IMG/VR virus record: IMGVR_UViG_3300033069_001798
Coordinates: 128,001-140,366 of that record
Length of the DNA stretch: 12,366 nt
Source of the DNA: a virus
Lineage: Duplodnaviria > Heunggongvirae > Uroviricota > Caudoviricetes
Reading direction: 5' to 3' (one strand)
Shown: positions 1 through 11,382 of the stretch, piece by piece
Layout of the letters: every line of letters starts with the position of its first letter
Numbering within the stretch: the first letter of the stretch is position 1
Translations under genes and position numbers: made by a program
Notes under the pieces: generated by a model
Told to the model about the DNA's origin: nothing
The model's input: only the letters and a program-made list of their open reading frames with translations
The model's database searches: none

Positions 1-666
1 AAGGCTCAAGAGAATCAAGTTAACCTTCTTCACATCTTCGAAGATGAATGGAAAAACAAGCGTGACATCGTCTGCAGCATGATCGATCATAAGCTTAAGC
101 TTCATTCTAAAAAGTACGATGCAAGAAAGTGCACTGTGCGAAGCGTGAGCACGCAAGAACGTAAAGCATTCTTCAACGTGAATCACATCGATGGAGACGT
201 TGCTAGCAATGCTGCGTACGGGTTGTTTGAAAATGATGAGCTGCTTGCTTGCATGTCAGTAAGAAAACCGTTTCATTCTGCGCACAAAGATGCAATTGAA
301 ATTGCTAGAGCGTGCTGCGTGTCAAACGTTAACGTCAGAGGATGGCTGGGTCGTCTGACAAAGCACTGTGCTGCACAGTCAAAGCTGATGGGAGCACGCA
401 AGATGATATCTTACATCGACACTCGACTAGGAACAAATGGCAAGTCATGGGAACGCGCTGGTTGGAAGTTTAATTCTTCTACGCCTCCACGATTCTGGTG
501 GACTGACTTTGACAACCGCTTCAATCGCTTCAAGTTCAAAGCCAACAAACCCATGGGTCTGACTGAAGCTCAAGTTGCAGAAGAAGCTGGCGTTGTCAAG
601 ATATATGGGTGCGGCAACATGCTCTACGAGATGGCGCTCTTACCGTCTCTACGGCCCACAGATTGA
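1..666 (+). CDS. Hypothetical protein, 5'-partial. Frame 1 is open from nt 1 with no stop before the first ATG at 79, so the gene probably starts upstream of the window. It carries an N-H-I-D-G-D...N motif like the His-Me/HNH core of phage homing endonucleases such as I-HmuI. This is a possible nuclease.
   Basis: I translated frame 1 by hand: nt 1..78 give KAQENQVNLLHIFEDEWKNKRDIVCS with no stop, joining the listed 195-aa ORF. The stop is TGA at 664..666. It is the only plus-strand gene at this end and is convergent with the minus-strand module. A bidirectional terminator lies just downstream. The motif 'FFNVNHIDGDVASNAAYGL' resembles 'VNHIDGNKTNN' of HNH_3 endonucleases. This motif call is weak and rests on memory only. 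Confidence 0.5.
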   Translation, partial: KAQENQVNLLHIFEDEWKNKRDIVCSMIDHKLKLHSKKYDARKCTVRSVSTQERKAFFNVNHIDGDVASNAAYGLFENDELLACMSVRKPFHSAHKDAIEIARACCVSNVNVRGWLGRLTKHCAAQSKLMGARKMISYIDTRLGTNGKSWERAGWKFNSSTPPRFWWTDFDNRFNRFKFKANKPMGLTEAQVAEEAGVVKIYGCGNMLYEMALLPSLRPTD

Positions 667-728: not shown

Positions 729-1070
729 TCAGCTTCTCTTGCCCACGCCTGCCCAAGGGTCTTTGGTCATGCTTGAAGCTGAAGTGCTATTGAGCCAGTT
801 CATCACTGAATCGATGTTTGATTCGATCTGCGTGATCGCCTTCAGCAGCTGCTGAGCCTTCTCAGACTCAGAAGTGTTCTGCATCAGCTCTGACACGGCT
901 CTCTTTGCACCCTCACGGCCAAGCTGCTTCTTGGCAGTCTGAAGGGAAGTGTACAAGTCTCTAAGCGGACCCTGGACTTTGGCTTGCTCCATGGATGCTT
1001 CGGACAGTTCAGCCTCTTCCTTCAGAACTTCCTTGATTAGCTTTCTTAGCTGCGATTCAGTAATTTTCAT
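729..1070 (-). CDS. Hypothetical 113-aa protein. It is predicted to be all alpha-helical or coiled-coil, rich in K/E/Q/A/S. Function unknown. It is not tube-like.
   Basis: The ORF has an ATG start (cat at 1068..1070) and a TGA stop (729..731). It begins 13 nt after the HEG stop and is followed by the bidirectional terminator. I found no recognisable motif. There is no strong SD upstream (cacttaatacttaactttagATG). Confidence 0.5.
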   Translation of the reverse strand: MKITESQLRKLIKEVLKEEAELSEASMEQAKVQGPLRDLYTSLQTAKKQLGREGAKRAVSELMQNTSESEKAQQLLKAITQIESNIDSVMNWLNSTSASSMTKDPWAGVGKRS

Positions 1071-1083
1071 CTAAAGTTAAGTA

Positions 1084-1905
1084 TTAAGTGACGTGCTTCC
1101 AACACGTTCTTCTGACAATTCCGCATATCAACTCTGGCGTCACAGAATATTTTTCAGCCATATGTCTGTAGAAAATTGATTTTGCACCAAATTTAGTTAC
1201 ATCAACTTGCTGGAAGTCTAGTCTTATTTGTCGAATAGTTTCTTCTGACAATTTTGCACTTGAATTATTCTCACCTTGTCGTTTTTTGATTTCTCTCTGA
1301 CGAAAGTCTTCATCTTCTTTCCATTTCTTCTTCAACTTGGAGCCGGTTATTGGACTTTTGCCGGTATGATCATTTGATGAACATTCAACAATGGGCCCAA
1401 CACCCATCCACAATCTGCCTTTAATGATGTGGGTTATAGTGTCTGGTTTAACACCATAAAGCTTAGCATATTTTTGATAAAATTCACCCAACAACAACGT
1501 TTCGTATGGTTTTTCTTCATTCCATGCTGCTTTTATCTTAGCTACAATTTCTTCTGTCAAAATAGCCATTGGATTTCTACTGCCAGATCCAACGCCACCT
1601 CCGAGGATCATGTTATAACCACCGTAAGCAACATACGATTTAAGTTTTTCGATCCAAAATATTTCTAGTTGATTTGCTTGCTCTTGATTTTCACATATTT
1701 CTATAACTTCATGAAGAAAATTTTCTTCTCCAAAATCTCTAATTGCTACGTGAAATCTTAGTTTTGAATTCAATTTTGCATCTTTGCAATGTGATGCCCA
1801 TCTTTTGTACATAGACTCTTCAGCTGTATTTTCATTCAACGTTACTGTTTGCCCGACATAAATTTTCAAATTTAGTTTGTTTGTGTGTCTGTAGATAACA
1901 TGCAT
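1084..1905 (-). CDS. Freestanding GIY-YIG homing endonuclease of the I-TevI/Seg type, with a NUMOD-like linker and a C-terminal helix-turn-helix. The preferred start is the ATG at 1905 (273 aa). The track's 1944 start is a TTG inside the upstream terminator stem.
   Basis: From the ATG at 1905 the N-terminus reads 'MHVIYRHTNKLNLKIYVGQT...', matching the GIY-x10-YIG spacing of I-TevI ('SGIYQIKNTLNNKVYVGSA'). It has 'YKRWASHCKD' (R...H), 'EIFWIEKLKS' (catalytic Glu region) and 'GGYNMILGG' (the conserved Asn). 'GENNSSAKLSEETIRQIR' resembles I-TevI 'SGENNSFFNHKHSD' (NUMOD3). The C-terminus 'AEKYSVTPELICGIVRRTCW' is HTH-like, similar to the I-TevI tail. I checked that the codon at 1942..1944 is caa (TTG on minus) and the codon at 1903..1905 is cat (ATG on minus). 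The region is about 33% GC against about 47% in flanking genes. Confidence 0.85.
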   Translation of the reverse strand: MHVIYRHTNKLNLKIYVGQTVTLNENTAEESMYKRWASHCKDAKLNSKLRFHVAIRDFGEENFLHEVIEICENQEQANQLEIFWIEKLKSYVAYGGYNMILGGGVGSGSRNPMAILTEEIVAKIKAAWNEEKPYETLLLGEFYQKYAKLYGVKPDTITHIIKGRLWMGVGPIVECSSNDHTGKSPITGSKLKKKWKEDEDFRQREIKKRQGENNSSAKLSEETIRQIRLDFQQVDVTKFGAKSIFYRHMAEKYSVTPELICGIVRRTCWKHVT

Positions 1906-1942
1906 TAAGTTACTCAATTCAGTTGGTACTATTGTAACAAAC

Positions 1943-1971
1943 AAACGCTCGGATGAACAATCCGAGCGTTT
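1943..1971 (-). terminator. Hairpin terminator downstream of sheath paralog 2. It has an 11-bp perfect stem AAACGCTCGGA/TCCGAGCGTTT and a 7-nt loop. On the minus transcript it is followed by GUUUGUU.
   Basis: Seen directly at 1943..1971: aaacgctcggatgaacaatccgagcgttt. It lies 14 nt after the sheath-2 stop (TGA, rc of 1985..1987) and 37 nt upstream of the HEG ATG. It shares the CTCGGA-N7-TCCGAG core with the terminator at 673..703. Confidence 0.5.
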
Positions 1972-1984
1972 GAAGTTAACTGAT

Positions 1985-4900
1985 TCAGTTGGAAGTTAAT
2001 GCTGCTTGAATGTTGTTTGTTACAACAAAATCAAGACTGACATACTCTATCGTACGGGTTGGCTGCACGAAGATTTTTCCTCGAATCGTATTGTTCTCGA
2101 TGTCTGCTTGCGTCGTGGTTGAAGAATCAATGATGACCCTGAACCTCTCAAGACCAGACAGTGCCTGGATTCTCTGCAAACGTGGTGTGACGGCTGAAGA
2201 GAACCTTGCGAGCGTCGCGGCTCTGTTTGGCTCGAAGATGATCGTCCTAGAGATGTCTCTGACTTGCCTTCTGATCTCGATCAGGAGTCGTCTTACGTTG
2301 ACTCTGTCAAGAGCTGATGCAGCGGCCTGAAGCGTCTTCTGACCCCACACAACAACTCCGCCCTTCGGGCTAGTTCCACCAGATGCATTCCCTGGGAATG
2401 CAACGATTGGGTTGATGTTGACATCGTACAGAGCATCCATGTTCGTCTTGGACAGCTGAACTCTTGCTTCCAGCGTCGTCGACAGAGCGCCTCTGGTGAA
2501 GCCTGCTGGTGCAAACCATGGGTGACCCACCGCGTCATTCAACGCTAGTGCGCCCAGGACTGCGACAGAAGGAGGAACCACGAGGTTAGTCTTCGTGTTA
2601 GGATCTGGCATCACAACGTCTGGGAAGTATGCAGCTGCAAAACTGTTGTCAACTGCCCTAGAGCTGAACGATGAAGCCGTCGACGTGACAGAAGGCATCT
2701 GGCTGTCTGACGTGACTTCGGTGCCAGTGTTATCAAACTGCTCGATATCCATGATGTATAGAGCGTCGAATCTCTCCCTTACTGCATCTGCAGCAGCATC
2801 TGTTACGATTGCATGCCTGATGCCTGGGATTGCTAGAAGTTGGACATCAACGCTGACGACGTTCTTCATGATCTCTAGCGCTTTTGCGTAAGATCTTACG
2901 TTTGCACCTTGATCACGATTTCTTGTCGAAGAATTCATGTCTGCAGTGACTGCGGCGTTGTTGATCTCAACAGAGTCTCTGTCAAAGAGATTGACGCCAT
3001 CGAAACCACCTTGCATCAAGAAGGAGAACTTTGCGTACCTTCTGTTTGCCTGAATCAAGTCATTGACAGAGAATCTACGAGTCTTGGCAGAATCAGAAGC
3101 AGTGATGTTTCCATTCCTGACATACTGAGCAGATGCCCACTGAGCAGAATCAGCGTACGTGGTCGAACCGGTCACAACTTGGATATTTTCCAGCGTGAAC
3201 ATGTTGTTGCAGAACCTATCTGCATCGATGATACCCCACGTGTCTGTGTCAACGTCTCCCGTGTTGTCACCAACTGAGAAGTTCTGATTCACAGTAGAGA
3301 AGTTAGGGAAGTACTTGGCAAAAGCCTTCATCGAATCGTTCTTATACGTCGATGCATTTGGTGTTGACAAGCTGGTGACATGCTCAAACTGAGCGCCCCA
3401 GTAGAGAAGCGGGTTCACTTGAACCTTGTTGCCGCTGCCGGCAGTGATGTTGGTTCTCATTGGAAGAGGTGGAGTGACCACTCTCTTCAAGTAAGTTCCT
3501 GCGCTAAGCTGCGTTCCTGCGATCGACGTCAAAGGAGCAGATCCAGACGTGACCAGGTGCTCAATACCCCTGAAACCCATCGGAAGTGCTGTTGGATCGA
3601 CAGTCTGGTTCTCAACGCCAGGATCAACTTCCACTCTTACGAGGTTGGAGTTGGACGTGTAGTTTCCATCTACAACAAGCTTCTGTGCCGGTTCTGAACG
3701 ATCGAAGTCATAGAACACATGAGCATCGCCGATGATCTTAGCAATGTAACGATCAGAGCTTGGATCGAGCGACAAACCTCTGAACTGCTCCAGAGGAATC
3801 AAGTTACCGTCTCTATCAGACCAGTCTCTCAAGACAAGATCGAAGGTACCGTAACGATTCTGCGAATCAGACGAAGGTGTGATGTTCTCGATAGACACCT
3901 TGTAGAGAGTAGAAACTCCAGCGCCGGCGTCGAGAGCGTGCAACCTGAATAGGTTAGCTGCTGAACCACCGAACTTCTGAGAGATAACCCAAGGGGACTT
4001 AGCATGGGAGAATCTATCAGAGAATGACTCGTAGTTTGGTACAGTCGAAGAACCAAGATTTCTTCCAAGTGAGCCAGTTGTCAAGAATGCTGATGATTCC
4101 TGACCAGACTTAGCAACTCTAGAACCCGCGGCACCGCTGACTGGGTACACTAGACCAGAACCAGTGACTGCTGCAACGGCTGGGTGGATGTCCCAAGATG
4201 CGTACAGGTAGTGACCTGCTTGCTGCATCTTGTAAGGATCAGTGTTCAGAACGTTTGCAAAGTAATTTGGTGAAGTAAGATCGAAGGATGCAGTGATCAC
4301 GTTCGGGTACAGAGGATCTGTTCCCTTGTGGCCGTTGAGAAGCATGACAAAGTCTTGCTTCGAAACTGATCCATCTGTCAAAACAACTGCACCGATCATG
4401 CTGCCGTTTGCAGTAGCATCTGTAGCAACAAGCGTGGAAGAAGGAGCTGAGTTCGTTCCTTCAGCAGACGATGAGAGGCGAAGGATGACGCCAGAAGGTG
4501 CCATAAGCACACCTCTGAGGACTGGAACTGAGCTTGTGATGCCAGGTGTTACAGAACCTGCGCCCTGCAGGCCTGCATCAGAGAACGCTGTTGAACCAGC
4601 AGACTCTGACATGAAGGCGCCGAGGAAATACGTTCTTCCAAGCGGTGATCCAAGCGTTCCAGAGTTTGCATAATCGTTTCCAGCTAGAGCACCATCAGAT
4701 GATCGTGGTTGCAAGCTACCAACTGTGAAACCTGCGTTTGTGACAGAGCCAGCAGTCGTTCCATCAGCAACTCTTTGCTTGCCGTCACCTACACCAAGAA
4801 CTCGAACGTACGTCAAAGCTCCGGCGTTTCTTAGCCACTCAGTAACAGCAAGCGGACCGAACTTTTTTCCGTCTGTCTTGCCGAACTTTAGGTAGAAGTC

Positions 4901-5056
4901 ATCGATAGAACCAACGGTGACTGGCACGAATGCCGGACCCTTTGTTGCAGTTCCGATGACGCCGGCTGGGATGCCGACAGGTTGCTGAACAACTGGACCT
5001 GATAGGTCAATTTCTTTTGCTGAAACTCCAGCACTTCCAAACTTTATCTGTGACAT
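1985..5056 (-). CDS. Tail sheath protein, paralog 2. It is gp18-like, very large (about 1023 aa from the ATG at 5056), with the conserved N- and C-terminal sheath-core regions.
   Basis: The C-terminus reads 'ALDRVNVRRLL...FEPNRAATLARF...FRVIIDSSTTTQ...IFVQPTRTIEYVSLDFVVTN'. T4 gp18 reads 'DRINVRRLFN...FELNNAFTRSSF...YRVVCDTTNNT...FYIQPARSINYITLNFVAT'. 'WFAPAGFTRGAL' matches gp18 'WMSPAGYNRGQIL'. The N-terminus 'KGPAFVPVTVG' matches gp18 'WGPAF'. The track start at 5083 is TTG (caa at 5081..5083) inside a hairpin. The ATG at 5056 (cat at 5054..5056) gives an N-terminus (MSQIKFGSAGVSAKEIDLSGP...) that aligns exactly with paralog 1 (MPEQTFKSPNFYEREIDLSAP...). A GAGG lies 6 nt upstream. Confidence 0.9.
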   Translation of the reverse strand: MSQIKFGSAGVSAKEIDLSGPVVQQPVGIPAGVIGTATKGPAFVPVTVGSIDDFYLKFGKTDGKKFGPLAVTEWLRNAGALTYVRVLGVGDGKQRVADGTTAGSVTNAGFTVGSLQPRSSDGALAGNDYANSGTLGSPLGRTYFLGAFMSESAGSTAFSDAGLQGAGSVTPGITSSVPVLRGVLMAPSGVILRLSSSAEGTNSAPSSTLVATDATANGSMIGAVVLTDGSVSKQDFVMLLNGHKGTDPLYPNVITASFDLTSPNYFANVLNTDPYKMQQAGHYLYASWDIHPAVAAVTGSGLVYPVSGAAGSRVAKSGQESSAFLTTGSLGRNLGSSTVPNYESFSDRFSHAKSPWVISQKFGGSAANLFRLHALDAGAGVSTLYKVSIENITPSSDSQNRYGTFDLVLRDWSDRDGNLIPLEQFRGLSLDPSSDRYIAKIIGDAHVFYDFDRSEPAQKLVVDGNYTSNSNLVRVEVDPGVENQTVDPTALPMGFRGIEHLVTSGSAPLTSIAGTQLSAGTYLKRVVTPPLPMRTNITAGSGNKVQVNPLLYWGAQFEHVTSLSTPNASTYKNDSMKAFAKYFPNFSTVNQNFSVGDNTGDVDTDTWGIIDADRFCNNMFTLENIQVVTGSTTYADSAQWASAQYVRNGNITASDSAKTRRFSVNDLIQANRRYAKFSFLMQGGFDGVNLFDRDSVEINNAAVTADMNSSTRNRDQGANVRSYAKALEIMKNVVSVDVQLLAIPGIRHAIVTDAAADAVRERFDALYIMDIEQFDNTGTEVTSDSQMPSVTSTASSFSSRAVDNSFAAAYFPDVVMPDPNTKTNLVVPPSVAVLGALALNDAVGHPWFAPAGFTRGALSTTLEARVQLSKTNMDALYDVNINPIVAFPGNASGGTSPKGGVVVWGQKTLQAAASALDRVNVRRLLIEIRRQVRDISRTIIFEPNRAATLARFSSAVTPRLQRIQALSGLERFRVIIDSSTTTQADIENNTIRGKIFVQPTRTIEYVSLDFVVTNNIQAALTSN

Positions 5057-5080
5057 CCTATGCCTCTGCAGTGTAAGTAT

Positions 5081-5113
5081 CAATCTTTCCGCACACTACG
5101 TGCGGAAAGATTG
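5081..5113 (-). promoter_or_regulatory. Intercistronic stem-loop between the two sheath genes. It has a perfect 14-bp stem CAATCTTTCCGCAC/GTGCGGAAAGATTG and a 5-nt loop ACTAC. There is no U-tract, so it is not a canonical terminator. It is a candidate attenuator, RNA-processing or stability element.
   Basis: Seen directly in the sequence. The left arm is 5081..5094, the loop 5095..5099 and the right arm 5100..5113. It lies 23 nt after the sheath-1 stop (5137..5139) and 24 nt before the sheath-2 ATG at 5056. Confidence 0.5.
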
Positions 5114-5136
5114 TTGTTGAACTCGTAATTTCACCA

Positions 5137-8100
5137 TCAGCCGAACGTGACTCCGCTGTTCGTAATGATAAAGTCGATTGCGATATACTCGATTGTGCGT
5201 GTTGGAACAATCATGATCTTTCCGTTGAGGCGGTTAAGATCGACGTCTTCCTGCGTGTTGTTCGTTTCGTTCATCACAACTTGGAACTGCTCAACACCAG
5301 CTTGCGCCTGGATGAGTCCGAGTTGCAACGTTGCATCTGCAACGAACTTGTTTCTAACTTCTGGCGTGTTGTTCTCAAACACGCCGCGCTGTGCGATGTC
5401 AATGATGATTCTCTTGACTTCTAGGAGGAGGCGCCTGACATTGACTCTGTCAAGAGCAGACTTGTTGATCTGCAGCGTCTTCTGACCGTAGATCACAAAG
5501 CCCAACCTTGGGAAAGTTGCGATCGGGTTGATCCTAGAAGCATCAAGCCTATCTCTGTCAGAGACGTTCAATCTGACAGCAACATTGCTGACAAAGTCAA
5601 GAGACGCTCTGTTGAAACCTGCTGGTGCGAACCAAGGATATGCAACCCTGTCGTTGAATGCCAAAGCACCCATCGCTGCAACAGACGCCGGCACCTTGAC
5701 CCTACGCTTGTTCGTAGCATCATCGATGTATACGTCTGGGTAGTACGTTCCAGCGTAGTTGTTATCAATCGCTCTTGTGTCAACTTGCTCCGCCGTCTTG
5801 TCAACAGATGGGCGTGCTGTTGAATCATCGTACAGACGAGCTGATGCATCATCGTACGAAGGAATGTCCATGACGTAGTATGCTAGACCGTAGTCACGCA
5901 CCTTCTTCATAGCGTAATCAGACACAAACGTCTCTCTGATACCAGGGATCGTGAGGATGTTAGTGTTGACAGTCATTGGATCAGTCATGATATCAACTGC
6001 AGTCTTGTAAGACGCAACAGTCGAGTTAAGCTGACCAGTACCGCTTGGATTGAATCCAAGGCCTGGTGCGGTGTAACCAACTTCTGCTCCGCCACCCGCA
6101 TCGAACGATGATGCCTTATCGTTGAGCCTGCGTGCATCCCTATCAAGGATGTTGACGCCGTCCCAGCCGCCACCCATGAAGGTGACGAACTTGGTGAACG
6201 TAGAGAACTTGTTAAAGTTCGCTGCTGTGTCCTTTGCAAGGATCGTAGCTAGCGTAACTCTCGTTCCGATAGCTGAATCGTTGATCGTGTAGTTCGACGT
6301 ATCAAGCTTACCATTTCTGATGTACGCAGCTTCCTTCATGTGTTCGTTGACAGATGCAGTGAGGTGCGTGATCGCACCGTTGGAGAAAGCAACCTTTGCA
6401 AGCGTAAACTTGTTGTTGTTGAACGTGTCTGCACCAGATCCGCTTACCAGAACATCGAGCTTATCGATGCCAAGGAACTTCGTGTAAGATGCAAGCAGCG
6501 CGTTCTTCTCGCTGACAAGATTTGGGTTCAGAGCATTCGTGTTTCTTTCGAACTTAACGCCCCAGTAAAGCTGCGACAAAACAAGCTCTGTTGAACCTGG
6601 GAGACCTTGCCAAGCTGCACCAGAAGGTGCATCGCCCTTCGTAACTTTCACTCTGAAAGGCACTGGTGGGAGCAAGGAACCAGACAGAGAAGATGCAACA
6701 GATACGCCCAACGATGCCGCCAACCTTGACGTTGCTGTCGAAGGAGACGTATCAGTCAGAAGATCGTTTGTCTTTGGAAGCTGATGTCCATGAAATCCGA
6801 ATGGAAGCGTCTTCTGAGGAACTAGTGCCCTCTCGACTGCGTCAGTCATGACGATTCTGACGTACCTAGACTTGTTATCGTACTTTCCGAAGGTGACAAT
6901 CCTGCGCTCGGCGTCGACAGTTGCATCAAAGTTAAACGTAACCTTTCTATCACCAACTAGCTTCGCAACGTAGTTCGCAGCGGTTGGATTCAAAGAGCAG
7001 TTAGGGAATGACTCTAGAACCTTAGGATTCGTGTCCGTGTCTGTCCAATCTCTCACCTGCACGGTGAACGTACCGTAAGGGTTTGAATCATCGAGCGATG
7101 CCTTAAGATCAGTAATTGCAATCTTGTAGAGAGTGTTTGCGTATTCACCATCATCAAGAGCTTCAAACTTGAACAGATCGTACTCAGTTGCACCGAAAGG
7201 TTGCGAGATGAAGTACGAAGTTGATGGTGCCTTGTATCTAGTGTCGAAAGCACCAAACGCTTTCCTCATTGCTAGCGTGGTATCACCAGAATTAGCTGAA
7301 GTGACATTCGACCCAGAGAGGACGCCGACGACTGTTGCTGTTGCTAGCTCATCATCAACTGGGAAATCAGCATACAAGTAGTGCTGCTCAGAGACGAATT
7401 TGTCCGGATCCGTGTTAAGGATCTTCGCAAAGTAATCTGCGTCAGTTGGGTTCAAGCTAGCAGTGAAGATCTTCACGCCTGGGTTATTGTCTGAATTCCA
7501 GAACGTGTTTCCCAACGTAGAAGAGATGATCAGCTTGAACTTGCCGCTAGACAACGTTGCTGAATCAGAGTTAGATCCGTTGAACGTTCCAAGAGGTGCC
7601 GCAGTTCCACCGCCAAGGACCATGACCCTCGAAGAGGTTGGTGTCATGATCATGCCTCTAATCAAGTTAACAGTAGAACCAGTGTAAGAATCGTTGTCAG
7701 TGAAGAGCGGGATTCCGTAAGCTTCATTCGTCTGCAGCGTGTGCCGAGCAGCAAGGAACTGCACCGCACCGTTGTGACGACCAAGGTTATCGTGAGCCGC
7801 TGCCGTTCCATTCAAGTACATGCCTGCCGACAGAACTCGACCGGTCGTTTGAGTCGTAAGAATGTCAGAAGAAGATGCGTTTGCTCCCGCACCAAGGACT
7901 CTCAAGTACGTTAGAGCGGTCTTGTGCTGCAAGAATTCTTTGACAGCATACGGTCCAAATCTCTTTGGATCTAGATTACCAAATCTAGCTACGAATTCAT
8001 CAAAATTTCCAACAGTGACCGGCACAAACGCTGGTCCCTTGTTGCTAGTTCCGATGACACCAGCCGGTACGCCGACGGGACCTGCAATCTGCGGAGCTGA

Positions 8101-8154
8101 AAGATCAATTTCGCGCTCGTAAAAATTTGGTGACTTAAATGTTTGCTCTGGCAT
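5137..8154 (-). CDS. Tail sheath protein, paralog 1. It is gp18-like and 1005 aa.
   Basis: The start is ATG (cat at 8152..8154). The N-terminus 'EREIDLSAPQIAGPVGVPAGVIGTSNKGPAFVPVTVGNFDEFVARFGN' aligns with the T4 gp18 N-terminus ('...TGTAALAGKFQWGPAF...NEVDLVNTFGQP'). The C-terminus reads 'WFAPAGFNRASL', 'FVIYGQKTL', 'ALDRVNVRRLLLEVKR', 'VVMNETNNTQEDVDLNRLNGKIMIVPTRTIEYIAIDFIITN'. This closely parallels the gp18 C-terminal domain. Identity to paralog 2 is about 40-55% in the conserved blocks, by eye. Confidence 0.9.
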   Translation of the reverse strand: MPEQTFKSPNFYEREIDLSAPQIAGPVGVPAGVIGTSNKGPAFVPVTVGNFDEFVARFGNLDPKRFGPYAVKEFLQHKTALTYLRVLGAGANASSSDILTTQTTGRVLSAGMYLNGTAAAHDNLGRHNGAVQFLAARHTLQTNEAYGIPLFTDNDSYTGSTVNLIRGMIMTPTSSRVMVLGGGTAAPLGTFNGSNSDSATLSSGKFKLIISSTLGNTFWNSDNNPGVKIFTASLNPTDADYFAKILNTDPDKFVSEQHYLYADFPVDDELATATVVGVLSGSNVTSANSGDTTLAMRKAFGAFDTRYKAPSTSYFISQPFGATEYDLFKFEALDDGEYANTLYKIAITDLKASLDDSNPYGTFTVQVRDWTDTDTNPKVLESFPNCSLNPTAANYVAKLVGDRKVTFNFDATVDAERRIVTFGKYDNKSRYVRIVMTDAVERALVPQKTLPFGFHGHQLPKTNDLLTDTSPSTATSRLAASLGVSVASSLSGSLLPPVPFRVKVTKGDAPSGAAWQGLPGSTELVLSQLYWGVKFERNTNALNPNLVSEKNALLASYTKFLGIDKLDVLVSGSGADTFNNNKFTLAKVAFSNGAITHLTASVNEHMKEAAYIRNGKLDTSNYTINDSAIGTRVTLATILAKDTAANFNKFSTFTKFVTFMGGGWDGVNILDRDARRLNDKASSFDAGGGAEVGYTAPGLGFNPSGTGQLNSTVASYKTAVDIMTDPMTVNTNILTIPGIRETFVSDYAMKKVRDYGLAYYVMDIPSYDDASARLYDDSTARPSVDKTAEQVDTRAIDNNYAGTYYPDVYIDDATNKRRVKVPASVAAMGALAFNDRVAYPWFAPAGFNRASLDFVSNVAVRLNVSDRDRLDASRINPIATFPRLGFVIYGQKTLQINKSALDRVNVRRLLLEVKRIIIDIAQRGVFENNTPEVRNKFVADATLQLGLIQAQAGVEQFQVVMNETNNTQEDVDLNRLNGKIMIVPTRTIEYIAIDFIITNSGVTFG

Positions 8155-9526
8155 CGATCTTCTCTTCTGTGGTTGGAATCGCTACGATAAGTATCAAAGG
8201 TTCTTGACGAAAACCGCGTGAGATTGGTGCTAATCCATCGATCACTTCTATTGACAAGTCGCCCATGTCTACGCCCGTCGAGTAGACTGTTTCACCAGTG
8301 TTAGAATTAACAGTTGTGATTCGAACGAACCTTTCAACAAGTTCACCACGAGAATTACGAGCCAAGTATCTCTTGTACTGAGGTGGGTTTCTTCCCCTTG
8401 AGAATGCTTGAAGAGCTGGATCATTTGGATCGATCTGTTCGCTAGCAATGAACAGACGACCTCGCCCAGTTTCTCTTTGATCACGTCTACCATTTCTAAC
8501 GGCAGACAACGGCAACGTCGGATCGTCAGCTCCCAAGAATGGATCATCAACGCCATCTCTAACAGTTGCTTCTGGCAACGGTAGACCGACGCTAAAGTTA
8601 ACTTCTGGGACTGAAACGTAGCGCTTCACAGCTAGCGGCACGCCTGGTGCTGACGATGCCAAGATGTACGCAGGAACGTTGATCTCAAACTTCGTCTTGA
8701 TCATCCTTTCCGCGGTGCTCATGTCATCAAAGTTCATGTCTGGCGTGAAATTTTCATCTGCTAGCGTTGCAACGAACCAATAACCGGCTGGTGTTGAAAG
8801 TTTCCAACCACGTGTCTGCGGCAAGAAAGAAGAGATCAACGTCTCAAGCAGCTGATTCATCTGTCGACGGTACTGCGCCCAGATCTCAACTTCGTACGTT
8901 GCTGTGTAAAACTGCGGTGATGGAACAACAAGCGTCTCGTAGATGTTGTTTGTGCGATCTGGTACCATCAAGCCGCCATCAGCAACGATTCCAACTTCAT
9001 CCCCGAGCTCGCCGACGCGGCGCTCAGTGGCTAGCTGACCGCTGTCAGCCATCGCAACTGGCACACCAAGCCCACTCGAGTGACGCAGAAAAACTCGATT
9101 AATCAAACCTTGGTAGCTACGGTCTGAATTATCTAGTTTTCTTCTCACTATGATCTCGCCGGTCATCTGGTTGATTCCCCGACCGGTGATGTCAGTGACT
9201 GGTGATTGCGTTATGTTAGTACGTCCGATCACTATGATCGGTAGGATCAAAGAACCATTCTTGTCTCTTATCGACTTGTTCTTCTTGATGAGTGCCCACT
9301 TCTCACCACCGGCAAAGATGATCGGTACTCTTTTCGTACCGGTGCCTTCACCTTCTGTCACTAGCAACGGCAACTCTTTGTTGAACAACTGGAACAAGGA
9401 CACATCGACGTCTTCAATCCCTACTGGCGGGATGGCGATGGACGTAGTCGGGCCTTCTGGGTACCCAGATGGAAGCGGTGCTACACCGTGATTGACTGCT
9501 CCTCTAGCGTTAAATCTGTTGGTCAT
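8135..9526 (-). CDS. Hypothetical virion structural protein of 463 aa. It lies immediately upstream of sheath paralog 1 and overlaps its start by 20 nt. By position it corresponds to a tail terminator / sheath stabiliser (T4 gp15). There is no sequence-level support for that role.
   Basis: It has an ATG start (cat at 9524..9526) and a TAA stop (rc of 8135..8137). Its ATG overlaps the upstream gene's stop as ATGA. No ATPase or terminase motifs were seen. The assignment is by synteny only. Confidence 0.6.
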   Translation of the reverse strand: MTNRFNARGAVNHGVAPLPSGYPEGPTTSIAIPPVGIEDVDVSLFQLFNKELPLLVTEGEGTGTKRVPIIFAGGEKWALIKKNKSIRDKNGSLILPIIVIGRTNITQSPVTDITGRGINQMTGEIIVRRKLDNSDRSYQGLINRVFLRHSSGLGVPVAMADSGQLATERRVGELGDEVGIVADGGLMVPDRTNNIYETLVVPSPQFYTATYEVEIWAQYRRQMNQLLETLISSFLPQTRGWKLSTPAGYWFVATLADENFTPDMNFDDMSTAERMIKTKFEINVPAYILASSAPGVPLAVKRYVSVPEVNFSVGLPLPEATVRDGVDDPFLGADDPTLPLSAVRNGRRDQRETGRGRLFIASEQIDPNDPALQAFSRGRNPPQYKRYLARNSRGELVERFVRITTVNSNTGETVYSTGVDMGDLSIEVIDGLAPISRGFRQEPLILIVAIPTTEEKIDARANI

Positions 9527-10197
9527 GGATCCTCATCGTAGAATGATGATCCGACGCCGTCTGGATCGCCACGCGAGGAAACCTCGCGAGCTCCAGTAAG
9601 CGGAGGATCTAGAACGCCAGCTCTCACCAAATCTCTTACATCACCGGTCGGCTCGCCTCGAGAATCCAACGACTGACCTCTCTGCTGTTCAAACGTCTTC
9701 TGGACTGCATCATCTTCTGGCCGTGAGATATCTGTTGGACCCATGAGAAGCGCCTTGAATTGCTCTTCTCTTGCCTTCAAACCGACGATCTTCACGCCGT
9801 CTTTGTGCTCTGGCAAACCGTAGATGTTTCTCATGACTTGTTCTTCGGTAATCTCGTAGAACACGTCGTTGAAAGAGAAGAAATCACCTATCTGGACGTT
9901 TATTCCTTTCTCAACGATGTCTCTGTATTGAACGAACAATTCAAGCTTGTATTGCTGGTCAACGCCGTACTTTCCGATCTTGGTATCAATCTGGTACTGG
10001 GAATCGACAAGAGCATCGATGATTATCGGATTATCAAAAACTTTCTTGATCGCTTCGTTGTAGATTCCTACTGTCAAAGTCTTTGCTTCTGAGATCGGAT
10101 AATAGTAGATCTTCTGGCCAACAATATCCTTTATCAGTTCTTTTGTGATATCTGATATGAAGTTAAGTTCTCTTGGAGTTATGAACAATCGTGACAT
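9523..10197 (-). CDS. Hypothetical structural protein of 224 aa. It has a folded domain of about 155 aa followed by an acidic, Gly/Pro/Asp/Arg-rich disordered tail of about 70 aa. By position it is a neck/tail-completion protein (T4 gp14 position).
   Basis: It has an ATG start (cat at 10195..10197) and a TGA stop overlapping the next ATG (9523..9526). It lies 6 nt after the 392-aa gene. The tail 'RPEDDAVQKTFEQQRGQSLDSRGEPTGDVRDLVRAGVLDPPLTGAREVSSRGDPDGVGSSFYDEDP' is low-complexity. Confidence 0.55.
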   Translation of the reverse strand: MSRLFITPRELNFISDITKELIKDIVGQKIYYYPISEAKTLTVGIYNEAIKKVFDNPIIIDALVDSQYQIDTKIGKYGVDQQYKLELFVQYRDIVEKGINVQIGDFFSFNDVFYEITEEQVMRNIYGLPEHKDGVKIVGLKAREEQFKALLMGPTDISRPEDDAVQKTFEQQRGQSLDSRGEPTGDVRDLVRAGVLDPPLTGAREVSSRGDPDGVGSSFYDEDP

Positions 10198-10203
10198 ATT
10201 TCA

Positions 10204-11382
10204 TCATCCAATCACGATTGCATGCGGCATAGGAACGAAGCGCAATTGCTTCTGCAAGTTTTCTGCTAGAGTTGCTTGCTGCTCGACGAGCTTAGCATTC
10301 GTCAGATTATCAAGGAATTCCTTCAGCTGCGTTAGAAGCTTCTCTTTGTCTTCTCTTGCTGTCGAAACTAGAGACTCACCGTTCAACTGCAAGTCTGCGT
10401 TAGGAATCGGAATAGACTGAAATTTCGATCTGGTGATTCCAAGCAACTCTCTGCACAGCGCAAGAGTGTACTGCCTGATCCATTGACGACCTGGTTGAGT
10501 GATCGTTGCAAAAGGGATGTTTCCTAGCGGCACGTTCTGCGGTCCGGAAACGCCGTAGATAGTTTGATCCAATCCTTGCAACGCAGTTGCATTCAGAGGA
10601 TCAGATGCACCAGCTTGAACTTTAACGAACAACTTACCCAGCTGAAGAGTCGTAGAAGGAATCGGAAATATTCTAAGTTTGCTACCGATGATCTCATAGC
10701 TGTAGTTTGACCTTCTCACTCTGAACGCTGCTTCAAGCATCCCTCTCCTAAGAACGTCTTCAAAGATCGGCAGCACGTAGAACACGGTGCTGTTGACGTA
10801 AGACTCGTAGTTGAAGTTCGTTGCTAGAAAGTTGGTGATGTTGCTAGCGTTAAGCAAAAAGTGCTGAGCAGCTAGCGGCTCCATGTGAAAGACTTCAATG
10901 ATGCGAATTGGACTCTTTGTCGTCATGTTGGTGTATATAACGCTGCCAGAGACTGCATCCTTTAGTTCAGTGTAGATGTTGTAATCCTGACGTCCTGCCT
11001 CGAGATCAAAGTAGCCCAACGTTGCATCGTACGAACCTCCAACGCCAGCGTAGGAAGCATACGGCGAAGCCTGCCTCATGAGATACTCAAGAGTCTGGTG
11101 CAAGTAACGGTTCGTCATGTCATTCAAGCTTCCAGTCGGCATGCCTAGCACGTTTGCCAGCTCTGACTGGATCTTCATCTCGTGAACTTTCCTTGCGTAC
11201 TCGCAGCATGCTTCTTCAAAGCATGCCCATATCTCTTTCTTCGACAGCTCGACAGACAAGACATCATCGCCGAGCTTTCTCTTCACGAAAGTTACCATGC
11301 CGTCTGCTTCTGTCTGAAAGCTAGCATCAGAATCGAAAAATCCAAAAGGCGTTGGCCTGATTGTTTGCACAAACGTTGACAT
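10204..11382 (-). CDS. Putative neck protein of 392 aa, gp13-like.
   Basis: It has an ATG start (cat at 11380..11382) with a strong SD upstream (AAGGAAAG, 9-nt spacer). The N-terminus 'FVKRKLGDDVLSVELSKKEIWACFEEACCEYARKVH' resembles T4 gp13 '[34 protein letters not shown]'. The C-terminus '...ALCRELLGITRSKFQ...NGESLVSTAREDKEKLLTQL...PMPHAIVIG' resembles the gp13 C-terminus '...ALAKELNGQILARHQG...[20 protein letters not shown]...PFGILVG'. I recalled the gp13 sequence from memory and it needs confirming. Confidence 0.55.
   Translation of the reverse strand: MSTFVQTIRPTPFGFFDSDASFQTEADGMVTFVKRKLGDDVLSVELSKKEIWACFEEACCEYARKVHEMKIQSELANVLGMPTGSLNDMTNRYLHQTLEYLMRQASPYASYAGVGGSYDATLGYFDLEAGRQDYNIYTELKDAVSGSVIYTNMTTKSPIRIIEVFHMEPLAAQHFLLNASNITNFLATNFNYESYVNSTVFYVLPIFEDVLRRGMLEAAFRVRRSNYSYEIIGSKLRIFPIPSTTLQLGKLFVKVQAGASDPLNATALQGLDQTIYGVSGPQNVPLGNIPFATITQPGRQWIRQYTLALCRELLGITRSKFQSIPIPNADLQLNGESLVSTAREDKEKLLTQLKEFLDNLTNAKLVEQQATLAENLQKQLRFVPMPHAIVIG

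What the first reader, a model, noticed from the sequence alone, without database searches (positions are those of the whole stretch)
1985..8154. Tandem, anciently diverged duplication of a giant (~1000 aa) gp18-like tail sheath gene
Two adjacent minus-strand genes (5137..8154, 1005 aa; 1985..5056, about 1023 aa) both carry the full set of sheath-core motifs. These are the N-terminal 'KGPAFVPVTVG...FGP.AV.E.L....ALTY.RVLG' block and the C-terminal 'WFAPAGF.R', 'YGQKTL', 'ALDRVNVRRLL' and 'PTRTIEY...DF..TN' blocks. They also share internal blocks such as 'DYFAKILNTDPDK/NYFANVLNTDPYK' and 'NPYGTFTVQVRDWTD/NRYGTFDLVLRDWSD'. They are only about 40-55% identical, so this is an old duplication, not an assembly artefact. 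Canonical myoviruses, including T4, have a single sheath gene of about 660 aa. Two co-transcribed giant paralogs suggest one of two things. The contractile sheath may be built from two different subunits, a hetero-oligomer or a segmented sheath. Alternatively, the copies may be exchangeable variants. Both are about 50% longer than T4 gp18, which implies large extra surface-exposed insertion domains (the S/T/N/G-rich middle regions).
Basis: partly seen in the sequence, partly recalled or inferred. Interest (0 to 1): 0.85.

Follow-up and report, generated by a model that had tools for sequence, protein, structure and literature searches.

The report
Conserved pair of giant tail-sheath genes
An uncultured T4-like giant phage carries two adjacent, anciently duplicated ~1000-residue tail-sheath genes that are kept together across its whole environmental clade, so its contractile tail is probably built from two non-identical sheath subunits, an arrangement reported in phages only for Pseudomonas phage PaBG in the literature I searched.

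Summary
Minus-strand genes 5137..8154 (A, 1005 aa) and 1985..5056 (B, 1023 aa) are both full-length gp18-type sheath proteins. Evidence: PHROG tail sheath E~1e-54/1e-58, AF2 models at pLDDT 86/84, and T4 gp18 as top fold hit. They are 35-41% identical, not 40-55%.

It is not an artefact or pseudogene. DNA similarity between the copies is at most 74% over 87 nt. dN/dS against a sister strain is 0.016 (A) and 0.024 (B).

The pair is a fixed trait of a large uncultured T4-superfamily clade, with contigs up to ~370 kb. In 53 of 54 testable loci A is directly followed by B. The two paralogs evolve at the same rate (mean identity 0.690 vs 0.691) and carry 68 paralog-specific fixed residues. A keeps the ancestral C-terminal TxGVxF tail (101/119); B never has it (0/120). 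Each gene has its own GATACTTA promoter-like motif.

Sister lineages have one ~1000-aa sheath, so the large size came before the duplication.

Best reading: an obligate two-subunit sheath, arisen independently of the PaBG duplication and analogous to Afp2/Afp3. The lattice arrangement is untested.

Novelty: new variant of a known kind. Interest is moderate to high.

The parts
5137..8154 (-). Sheath paralog A (1005 aa), gp18-type contractile tail sheath subunit; retains the ancestral C-terminal TxGVxF tail
   Evidence: AF2 model pLDDT 86.2, pTM 0.81. Foldseek top hit is T4 gp18 9mkb, E=6e-18. More than 100 orthologs at 66-99% identity. dN/dS 0.016. C-terminal motif present in 101/119 orthologs.
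1985..5056 (-). Sheath paralog B (1023 aa), gp18-type contractile tail sheath subunit; C-terminal tail diverged (ends ..TNNIQ..)
   Evidence: AF2 model pLDDT 84.0, pTM 0.81. Foldseek top hit is T4 gp18, E=2e-19. More than 100 orthologs at 66-100% identity. dN/dS 0.024. C-terminal motif present in 0/120 orthologs.
8188..8195 (-). GATACTTA promoter-like motif 34 nt upstream of the ATG of A (lies inside the 3' end of the gp15-like gene)
   Evidence: One of only two GATACTTA copies in the window, against 0.17 expected by chance. ATA[GC]TTA is found upstream of 28/48 A genes across loci, against 1.2% of background 70-nt windows.
5074..5081 (-). GATACTTA promoter-like motif 18 nt upstream of the ATG of B
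   Evidence: ATA[GC]TTA is found upstream of 22/56 B genes across loci.
5081..5113 (-). Perfect 14-bp stem, 5-nt loop hairpin in the 80-nt A-B spacer, with no U tract; possible transcript end or stabiliser for A
   Evidence: Sequence read. Spacer minimum free energy is -26.1 kcal/mol. Not conserved: the median spacer in relatives is 41 nt and most have no hairpin.
1942..1972 (-). Strong intrinsic-terminator-like hairpin (13 bp followed by TTTGTT) directly after the stop codon of B
8135..9526 (-). gp15-like tail sheath stabiliser/terminator gene immediately upstream of A (context)
   Evidence: Weak PF16724 T4-gp15_tss hit, E=1e-4. The same position and family appear in relatives.
10204..11382 (-). 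gp13-like neck/head-tail adaptor gene (context; start of the gp13-gp14?-gp15-sheath module)
   Evidence: phrog_211, E=6e-9. Orthologs in relatives carry PF26809 Phage_T4_gp13.

Best explanation
Both genes encode complete, functional gp18-type sheath subunits, and both are needed to build one contractile tail sheath around a single tube protein. This would be a two-subunit (heteromeric) sheath.

Shown here:
- The two proteins are ancient paralogs with the full sheath fold.
- Both are under strong purifying selection.
- They are retained as an A-then-B tandem pair in essentially every member of a large uncultured T4-superfamily clade.
- They evolve at the same rate.
- They have fixed paralog-specific residues, including in the N-terminal arm (positions 3, 5, 7, 9) and at the extreme C-terminus. 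In known sheaths these are the strands that interlock neighbouring subunits.
- Each gene has its own late-promoter-like motif, and in most relatives also a GGAG-type ribosome-binding site.

Inferred:
- After duplication of an already enlarged (~1000 aa) sheath gene, the copies subfunctionalised into two non-equivalent positions in the same helical lattice. Possible layouts are A and B alternating within each six-membered ring, or alternating rings.
- The conserved tube-proximal core drives contraction as in T4.
- The divergent middle domains give the tail surface two different exposed faces.

The exact lattice arrangement is not determined.
For: Fold and family.

The duplication is real and old. 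BLASTP identity is 35% over the full length. DNA similarity is at most 74% over 87 nt. A and B are each monophyletic in 200/200 bootstrap replicates.

Both copies are functional. dN/dS is 0.016 for A and 0.024 for B at dS of about 0.3 against a sister strain.

Co-retention is near universal. In 53 of 54 testable loci A is directly followed by B on the same strand, with a median spacer of 41 nt. The same pairing is seen in 277-357 kb contigs.

Constraint is equal: mean within-A identity is 0.690 and within-B 0.691. There are 188 columns conserved and identical in both paralogs, and 68 columns conserved within each but different between them, including E3/Q3, T5/K5, R7/G7 and P9/A9.

The ancestral C-terminal motif is present in 101/119 A orthologs and 0/120 B orthologs.

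Both genes have the same promoter-like motif.

Only one tail tube gene lies downstream in relatives.

Precedents exist. In PaBG, two sheath paralogs at 38% identity both appear as bands in the structural proteome. Afp2 and Afp3 are both chains of the AFP helical sheath entries 6rbn and 6rc8.
Against: There is no direct evidence (proteomics, cryo-EM or co-assembly) that both proteins are in the virion or the sheath trunk.

Stoichiometry is unknown. In this window a strong hairpin sits between A and B and could lower read-through into B. It is not conserved in relatives, however, and B has its own promoter-like motif.

Equal rates and co-retention would also fit a model in which one paralog forms only a specialised ring.

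The phylogeny is neighbour-joining only. A+B as exclusive sisters drops to 72/200 once the L049 pair is added, although A+B+L049 is 199/200.
Confidence: 0.6

Rival explanations
1. Specialised-ring model, as in Photorhabdus PVC. One paralog forms the whole helical trunk. The other forms only one or a few rings at the baseplate-proximal or neck-proximal end, adapting the trunk to the sheath initiator or to the gp15-like terminator.
For: In PVC, Pvc2 is in the trunk entries (6j0b, 6j0c), whereas Pvc3 and Pvc4 occur only in the baseplate entry 6j0n. B has lost the ancestral C-terminal tail, which would suit a subunit at an end of the lattice. The hairpin between A and B in this window could reduce B expression.
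Against: A and B have the same length and domain layout and evolve at identical rates. Both have the same promoter-like motif, and in most relatives a GGAG ribosome-binding site too. The hairpin is absent from most relatives. In the phage precedent PaBG both paralogs are listed as structural-proteome gel bands.
Confidence: 0.2
2. Exchangeable or alternative sheaths. Either paralog alone can build a sheath, and the phage uses them as alternatives, for example two virion types, evasion of a sheath-sensing host defence, or redundancy.
For: Both copies carry every core polymerisation motif. Each has its own promoter-like motif.
Against: Redundant copies should be lost often, yet 53/54 loci keep both. 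dN/dS is very low in both. There are 68 reciprocally fixed differences and an asymmetric C-terminus. No inverted repeats or recombinase that could form a switch were found. There has been no gene conversion between A and B across the clade, since each is monophyletic in 200/200 replicates.
Confidence: 0.08
3. One paralog has left the sheath. It keeps the sheath fold but serves as another tail component, for example an outer decoration layer, a collar or fibre scaffold, or a baseplate-periphery protein.
For: In some relatives (L050, L069, L072) a third sheath-derived gene follows B. Its C-terminal polymerisation domain no longer aligns, showing that sheath copies in this group can drift to other roles. 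B-type proteins in the wider clade carry very large insertions, reaching 1655 aa.
Against: In this window both A and B keep the conserved N-terminal block and the WFAPAGF, GQKTL and LDRVNVRRL core. Both models match T4 gp18 over the whole chain with equal scores.
Confidence: 0.07
4. Assembly artefact, or one copy is a decaying pseudogene.
For: None found.
Against: The same pair occurs in independent assemblies from many samples. The copies are only 35% identical. Both ORFs are intact, with dN/dS of 0.016 and 0.024.
Confidence: 0.01

Closest known systems
Two-component tail sheath of Pseudomonas jumbo phage PaBG (Kurochkina et al. 2018, Virology 515:46; discussed in PMC7412058)
   Same: Two full-length sheath paralogs in one phage genome, about 38% identical, produced by gene duplication. 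Both appear as bands in the structural proteome. The trait defines a whole phage group, called 'Lupandier'.
   Different: The origin is independent: the PaBG pair is monophyletic in 200/200 replicates and lies outside the A/B clade. The PaBG proteins are 528 and 547 aa, not about 1000. Their genes lie about 118 kb apart rather than in tandem. PaBG is not in the T4-like gp13-gp15-sheath synteny group studied here.
T4 gp18 tail sheath (PDB 3j2m, 9mkb) and the T4-type tail module
   Same: Best sequence and fold match for both A and B. Neighbouring genes are gp13-like and gp15-like upstream, and a gp19-type tube, a PF12322 T4_baseplate protein and a gp23-type capsid in relatives.
   Different: T4 has one 659-aa sheath gene. 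Here there are two genes of about 1000 aa. Sequence similarity to gp18 is confined to the C-terminal ~200 residues and a weak N-terminal stretch. No cultured phage exceeds about 37% identity.
Multi-paralog sheaths of extracellular contractile injection systems (Serratia AFP Afp2/3/4; Photorhabdus PVC Pvc2/3/4; PlPVC1)
   Same: Adjacent sheath paralogs in one operon assemble into one contractile sheath. Afp2 and Afp3 are both chains of the AFP helical sheath entries. Pvc3 and Pvc4 appear only in the PVC baseplate entry.
   Different: Those are tailocin-like particles without capsids, with 350-450 aa sheath proteins. This locus belongs to a phage, with capsid and neck genes nearby. The duplications are unrelated.
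Uncultured huge phage LR756508.1 (484 kb) and Microcystis phage Mel-JY01
   Same: Closest deposited genomes by both sheath and major capsid protein. LR756508 also has two sheath paralogs of 824 aa each, 29% identical.
   Different: Mel-JY01 has a single 812-aa sheath followed by the tube gene. In LR756508, copy 2 fell within the Mel-JY01/Flavobacterium/L083 single-copy group (sister to Mel-JY01 in 183/200 replicates, but only 25/200 once more taxa were added). Copy 1 is on a long separate branch. That pair is therefore probably a separate event.

Membership tests
gp18-type contractile tail sheath protein (Pfam Phage_sheath_1 / Phage_sheath_1C; PHROG phrog_23) | Significant match to curated sheath family profiles | tested here: met
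   phrog_23 E=3e-54 for A and 3e-58 for B. Pfam Phage_sheath_1C: B scores 28.7, above the cut-off of 26.9; A scores 19.0, below it. The family profile hits T4 gp18 at E=2e-38.
gp18-type contractile tail sheath protein (Pfam Phage_sheath_1 / Phage_sheath_1C; PHROG phrog_23) | Sheath fold (core domains carrying the N- and C-terminal interlocking arms) | tested here: met
   AF2 pLDDT 86 and 84, pTM 0.81. Top Foldseek PDB hits for both are T4 gp18 (9mkb) and Klebsiella phage KP1 sheath, E=1e-17 to 1e-19, probability 1.00. The N-terminal ~20 residues are disordered in the monomer models, as expected for an exchange arm.
gp18-type contractile tail sheath protein (Pfam Phage_sheath_1 / Phage_sheath_1C; PHROG phrog_23) | Genomic position in a myovirus tail module next to tube and sheath-terminator genes | tested here: met
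   A gp15-like gene lies directly upstream. A tube gene (phrog_4542, E=3e-30) and a T4_baseplate protein lie downstream in relatives. In this window the tube gene lies beyond the inserted homing-endonuclease genes and is not seen.
gp18-type contractile tail sheath protein (Pfam Phage_sheath_1 / Phage_sheath_1C; PHROG phrog_23) | Polymerises around the tube and contracts | not testable with these tools
   Needs assembly assays or cryo-EM.
Two-component phage tail sheath (PaBG type) | Two full-length sheath paralogs encoded in one phage genome, both intact and under selection | tested here: met
   Conserved in 53/54 loci.
Two-component phage tail sheath (PaBG type) | Both paralogs present in the virion sheath | not testable with these tools
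   No proteome or structure exists for any member of this clade.
Two-component phage tail sheath (PaBG type) | Descent from the same duplication as PaBG (Lupandier group) | tested here: not met
   The PaBG pair is monophyletic in 200/200 replicates. A+B(+L049) is monophyletic in 199/200 and nests among single-copy giant sheaths. The system is analogous to PaBG, not homologous at the level of the duplication.
Extracellular contractile injection system (AFP/PVC-like) | Several sheath paralogs adjacent in one operon | tested here: met
Extracellular contractile injection system (AFP/PVC-like) | No capsid or packaging genes; a bacterial chromosomal locus | tested here: not met
   A gp23-type capsid gene and gp13-like neck genes lie on the same contigs of 277-357 kb. 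The contigs are phage genomes, and the MAG assignments to four unrelated taxa indicate misbinning.

The most novel reading that the evidence does not exclude
A widespread uncultured clade of T4-like jumbo phages builds its contractile sheath from two obligately co-assembling, non-equivalent giant subunits. The interlocking arms have become asymmetric: A keeps the ancestral C-terminal strand and B has replaced it. The sheath lattice would then have lowered symmetry or a doubled repeat. The same solution has evolved repeatedly in large phages: this clade, the L049 lineage, LR756508 and PaBG. That points to a general selective advantage of heteromeric sheaths for very large virions.
Probability: 0.45. 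Interest if true: 0.75.

Novelty: new variant of a known kind. Interest (0 to 1): 0.6.

Why it matters
Phage sheaths are generally treated as homopolymers, as in T4. The one characterised phage exception I found in the literature, PaBG, was published as 'unique'.

The results here show that a tandem A/B sheath pair is a fixed, strongly selected trait of a very large environmental phage clade. That clade spans dozens of 50%-identity clusters for each paralog and contigs up to ~370 kb from many samples. Sheath duplication also appears to have arisen independently several times in large phages.

This suggests heteromeric sheaths are a recurrent design rather than a curiosity. It yields a concrete structural hypothesis, namely asymmetric interlocking arms. 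It also provides a clean natural system for asking how a helical contractile lattice accommodates two subunit types.

For annotation, the second copy should not be dismissed as redundant.

Tried and rejected
- **Assembly artefact or recent duplication:** rejected. The best DNA repeat between the copies is 74% over 87 nt, and the pair recurs in many independent assemblies.
- **Pseudogene:** rejected. dN/dS is 0.016 and 0.024.
- **Invertible or switchable cassette:** no flanking inverted repeats and no recombinase.
- **Conserved attenuator between A and B:** the 14-bp hairpin is specific to this lineage. Most relatives have 16-50 nt spacers without structure.
- **Membership of a described phage group:** megablast against 50,697 phage records found nothing. 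By tblastn the best match is 31-37% identity. The major capsid protein is 35-45% identical to LR756508, Mel-JY01 and Immutovirus.
- **Host inference from genome bins:** the four MAG hits are assigned to Patescibacteria, Flavobacteriales, Halobacteriovorax and Methylococcaceae. This scatter points to misbinned phage contigs and is uninformative.
- **Literature:** searches for two tail sheath proteins, sheath paralogs and two-component sheath returned only PaBG as a phage with two sheath paralogs; contractile-injection-system and unrelated papers made up the rest.
- **Orthology of the LR756508 pair to A/B:** not supported.

Full report
**1. Observation**

The window carries a minus-strand tail module. 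In order it holds:
- a gp13-like gene (10204..11382);
- a 224-aa gene (9523..10197);
- a gp15-like sheath-terminator gene (8135..9526);
- two long ORFs, 5137..8154 (A, 1005 aa) and 1985..5083.

The plausible start of the second ORF is the ATG at 5056, behind a GAGG ribosome-binding site, which gives B at 1023 aa.

A and B align over their full length by BLASTP (543 bits). Identity is 35%, or 37% mean in a 116-sequence alignment and 41% on gap-trimmed columns. This is lower than the 40-55% stated.

At the DNA level the best repeat between the two genes is 74% over 87 nt, so this is not an assembly duplication.

**2. What the two proteins are**

- Both match the PHROG tail-sheath family phrog_23, at E=3e-54 and 3e-58.
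- In Pfam, B passes the Phage_sheath_1C gathering score and A falls just below it.
- A profile of the family finds T4 gp18 as the best solved relative, E=2e-38 over the C-terminal ~200 residues.
- AlphaFold2 models built on a 116-row alignment are confident: pLDDT 86.2 and 84.0, pTM 0.81 for both.
- For both models the best Foldseek PDB hits are T4 gp18 in the 2025 portal-neck-tail complex and the Klebsiella phage KP1 sheath, E=1e-17 to 1e-19.
- The N-terminal ~90 and C-terminal ~210 residues are colinear with all sheaths. The extra ~350 residues relative to T4-type gp18 are spread between residues ~90 and ~790.

**3. Both copies are functional**

I compared the window with a sister strain, L093, which is 99% identical in protein with dS of about 0.3. 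dN/dS is 0.016 for A and 0.024 for B.

**4. Distribution**

Word-indexed searches found more than 100 orthologs of A (66-99% identity) and more than 100 of B (66-100%). All are about 1000 aa and all come from metagenomic assemblies. Matching contig lengths show that the two genes travel together.

Three long contigs (357 kb, 277 kb and a 92-kb JGI contig) show the same gene order: gp13-like, a ~225-aa gene, gp15-like, A, B, small genes including one gp19-type tube gene (phrog_4542, E=3e-30), then a T4_baseplate protein. A gp23-type capsid gene lies nearby.

I built separate HMMs for A and B and scanned 80 IMG/VR loci and 4 GTDB-MAG loci.
- In 53 of 54 cases where the contig continues past A, the next gene on the same strand is B-type.
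- Six further A genes sit at contig ends and cannot be tested.
- The median A-B spacer is 41 nt.

An exhaustive search of 1.84 billion cluster representatives gave 7633 hits at E<=1e-3. The best 150 representatives split cleanly into three groups:
- about 45 A-type clusters, 950-1490 aa;
- about 70 B-type clusters, 975-1655 aa, many with large insertions;
- about 25 undifferentiated single-type sheaths, 750-990 aa.

No deposited phage genome belongs to the clade. Megablast finds nothing. The best tblastn hits are Microcystis phage Mel-JY01 and the 484-kb uncultured phage LR756508, at about 30-37% identity. The major capsid protein gives the same neighbours.

The MAG contigs are labelled Patescibacteria, Flavobacteriales, Halobacteriovorax and Methylococcaceae. 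I read this scatter as misbinning.

**5. Evolutionary history**

These results come from neighbour-joining trees with Kimura distances and 200 bootstrap replicates. This is a crude method, though the key nodes are strongly supported.
- A and B are each monophyletic in 200/200 replicates.
- Together with one weakly differentiated pair (locus L049) they form a clade in 199/200.
- The sister group of that clade is a set of single-copy sheaths of about 1000 aa (L070, L073, L087). The enlargement therefore came before the duplication.
- The two L049 copies group with each other in 200/200. This means either a separate duplication or gene conversion.
- LR756508 also has two sheath genes, 824 aa each and 29% identical. 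Copy 2 falls within the single-copy Mel-JY01/Flavobacterium/L083 group, so that pair is probably a separate event. Its pairing with Mel-JY01 specifically was 183/200 in the first tree but only 25/200 once more taxa were added.
- The two PaBG sheath proteins form their own clade in 200/200.

Tandem or dispersed sheath duplication thus appears to have arisen several times in large phages.

**6. Signs of subfunctionalisation**

Across the same set of genomes the mean pairwise identity is 0.690 within A, 0.691 within B and 0.371 between them.
- 188 alignment columns are at least 90% conserved and identical in both paralogs.
- 68 columns are at least 90% conserved within each paralog but differ between them.

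The second class includes positions 3, 5, 7 and 9 of the N-terminal arm and many positions in the C-terminal domain.

The extreme C-terminus is asymmetric. The motif [TSN]xG[AVITSL]xF ends single-copy sheaths, as in T4 ..TATGAD, Mel-JY01 ..NTGAAF and SP-15 ..STGASF. It is present in 101 of 119 A orthologs and in 0 of 120 B orthologs, which end ..TNNIxQ instead.

From established knowledge of sheath structures (T4, pyocin, T6SS), the N- and C-terminal strands are the elements exchanged between neighbouring subunits. Fixed asymmetry there is what one would expect if A and B occupy non-equivalent lattice positions. This step is inference.

**7. Expression signals**

GATACTTA occurs exactly twice in the 12.4-kb window, against 0.17 expected by chance. 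Both copies are on the minus strand, 34 nt upstream of the ATG of A and 18 nt upstream of the ATG of B. A third ATACTTA precedes the next minus-strand ORF at 1070.

Across the related loci, ATA[GC]TTA lies within 70 nt upstream of 28/48 A starts and 22/56 B starts, against 1.2% of background windows. Its position is tight, and GGAG ribosome-binding sites are common. I read this as the clade's late-promoter element, analogous to T4's TATAAATA. That is inference.

In this window the 80-nt A-B spacer also holds a perfect 14-bp hairpin without a U tract (5081..5113). A strong terminator-like hairpin follows B (1942..1972). The spacer hairpin is not conserved in relatives.

**8. Interpretation**

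The best-supported reading is an obligate two-subunit sheath (confidence about 0.6).

Precedents:
- PaBG has a two-component sheath with paralogs 38% identical. Both are listed as gel bands in the structural proteome, and the trait defines its group (PMC7412058, citing Kurochkina et al. 2018).
- In the AFP injection system, Afp2 and Afp3 are both chains of the helical-sheath entries.

The main rival (about 0.2) is the PVC-like arrangement, where extra paralogs form only baseplate-proximal rings (Pvc3 and Pvc4 occur only in 6j0n).

Exchangeable variants (about 0.08) are disfavoured by near-universal co-retention, very low dN/dS in both copies, reciprocal fixed differences and the absence of any switch.

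A non-sheath role for one copy (about 0.07) is possible in principle. Some relatives carry a third, degenerate sheath-derived gene. In this window, however, both A and B keep all core motifs.

**9. Novelty and score**

The giant size alone is not remarkable. Single-copy ~1000-aa sheaths occur in the sister lineage, and cultured cyanophages have sheaths of 932-1137 aa.

A two-paralog phage sheath is known from PaBG, so the kind is known. What is new:
- an independent, tandem, giant-subunit version;
- its fixation across a very large uncultured T4-superfamily clade;
- asymmetric interlocking termini;
- evidence that such duplications recur.

I found no description of this in the searchable literature. 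I classify it as a new variant of a known kind, with interest 0.6.

Noticed in passing
window 1084..1944 (-), with GC dip to 36% over 1001..2000: A GIY-YIG homing-endonuclease gene (286 aa; PF01541 E=5e-8; phrog_314 E=2e-27) is inserted directly downstream of sheath B. Relatives have small ORFs and then the tail tube gene at this position. The tube gene is therefore displaced beyond the window edge.
   Followed up: partly
window 79..666 (+): A 195-aa ORF matches only the C-terminal third of the homing/HNH-endonuclease families (phrog_3339 profile positions 347-533 of 536, E=2e-32). It could be a truncated or split mobile endonuclease, and it sits on the opposite strand next to the GIY-YIG gene.
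   Followed up: no
L067 9522..10292 (771-nt A-B spacer): In one relative the A-B spacer holds an ORF beginning MTTISFKSGIYKIENEVNGRVYYGSS, which is a GIY-YIG-type N-terminus. Homing endonucleases therefore also land between the two sheath genes.
   Followed up: no
L050 8038..10839; L069 3150..6374; L072 3157..5889: Some lineages carry a third sheath-derived gene directly after B. It is 24% identical to B over residues 34-780, its C-terminal polymerisation domain is not alignable, and it has no PHROG hit.
   Followed up: partly
window 1078..1084, 5074..5081, 8188..8195 (all -); related loci: An ATACTTA/GATACTTA motif lies just upstream of three consecutive minus-strand gene starts. ATA[GC]TTA is enriched about 40-fold upstream of sheath genes across the clade. 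It is a candidate late promoter for this phage group.
   Followed up: partly
L093/L094 4236..5033 versus window ~10197..10204: A 99%-identical sister strain carries an extra 265-aa gene (weak DUF7487 hit) between the gp13-like gene and the 224-aa gene. It is absent from the window, so it is a presence/absence polymorphism, possibly another mobile gene.
   Followed up: no
L089-L092 (GTDB genome contigs): Phage contigs of this clade, including one of 305 kb, are deposited inside MAGs labelled Patescibacteria, Flavobacteriales, Halobacteriovorax and Methylococcaceae TMED69. This is probably binning contamination.
   Followed up: no
L095 1..4825: A relative has a multi-domain glycosyltransferase/methyltransferase gene (1128 aa), a second glycosyltransferase and a B12-binding radical-SAM gene a few kb upstream of the tail module, separated from the gp13-like gene by four small ORFs.
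   Followed up: no
L097 2665..3735 (PaBG gp75, gp74): In PaBG the first sheath gene is followed by two genes both annotated as tail tube. Relatives of this window show only one tube gene after the sheath pair.
   Followed up: no
window 8135..9526 (-): The gp15-like gene is 463 aa here and in the sister strain, but 429-431 aa in other relatives. It overlaps the start of sheath A by 20 nt.
   Followed up: no
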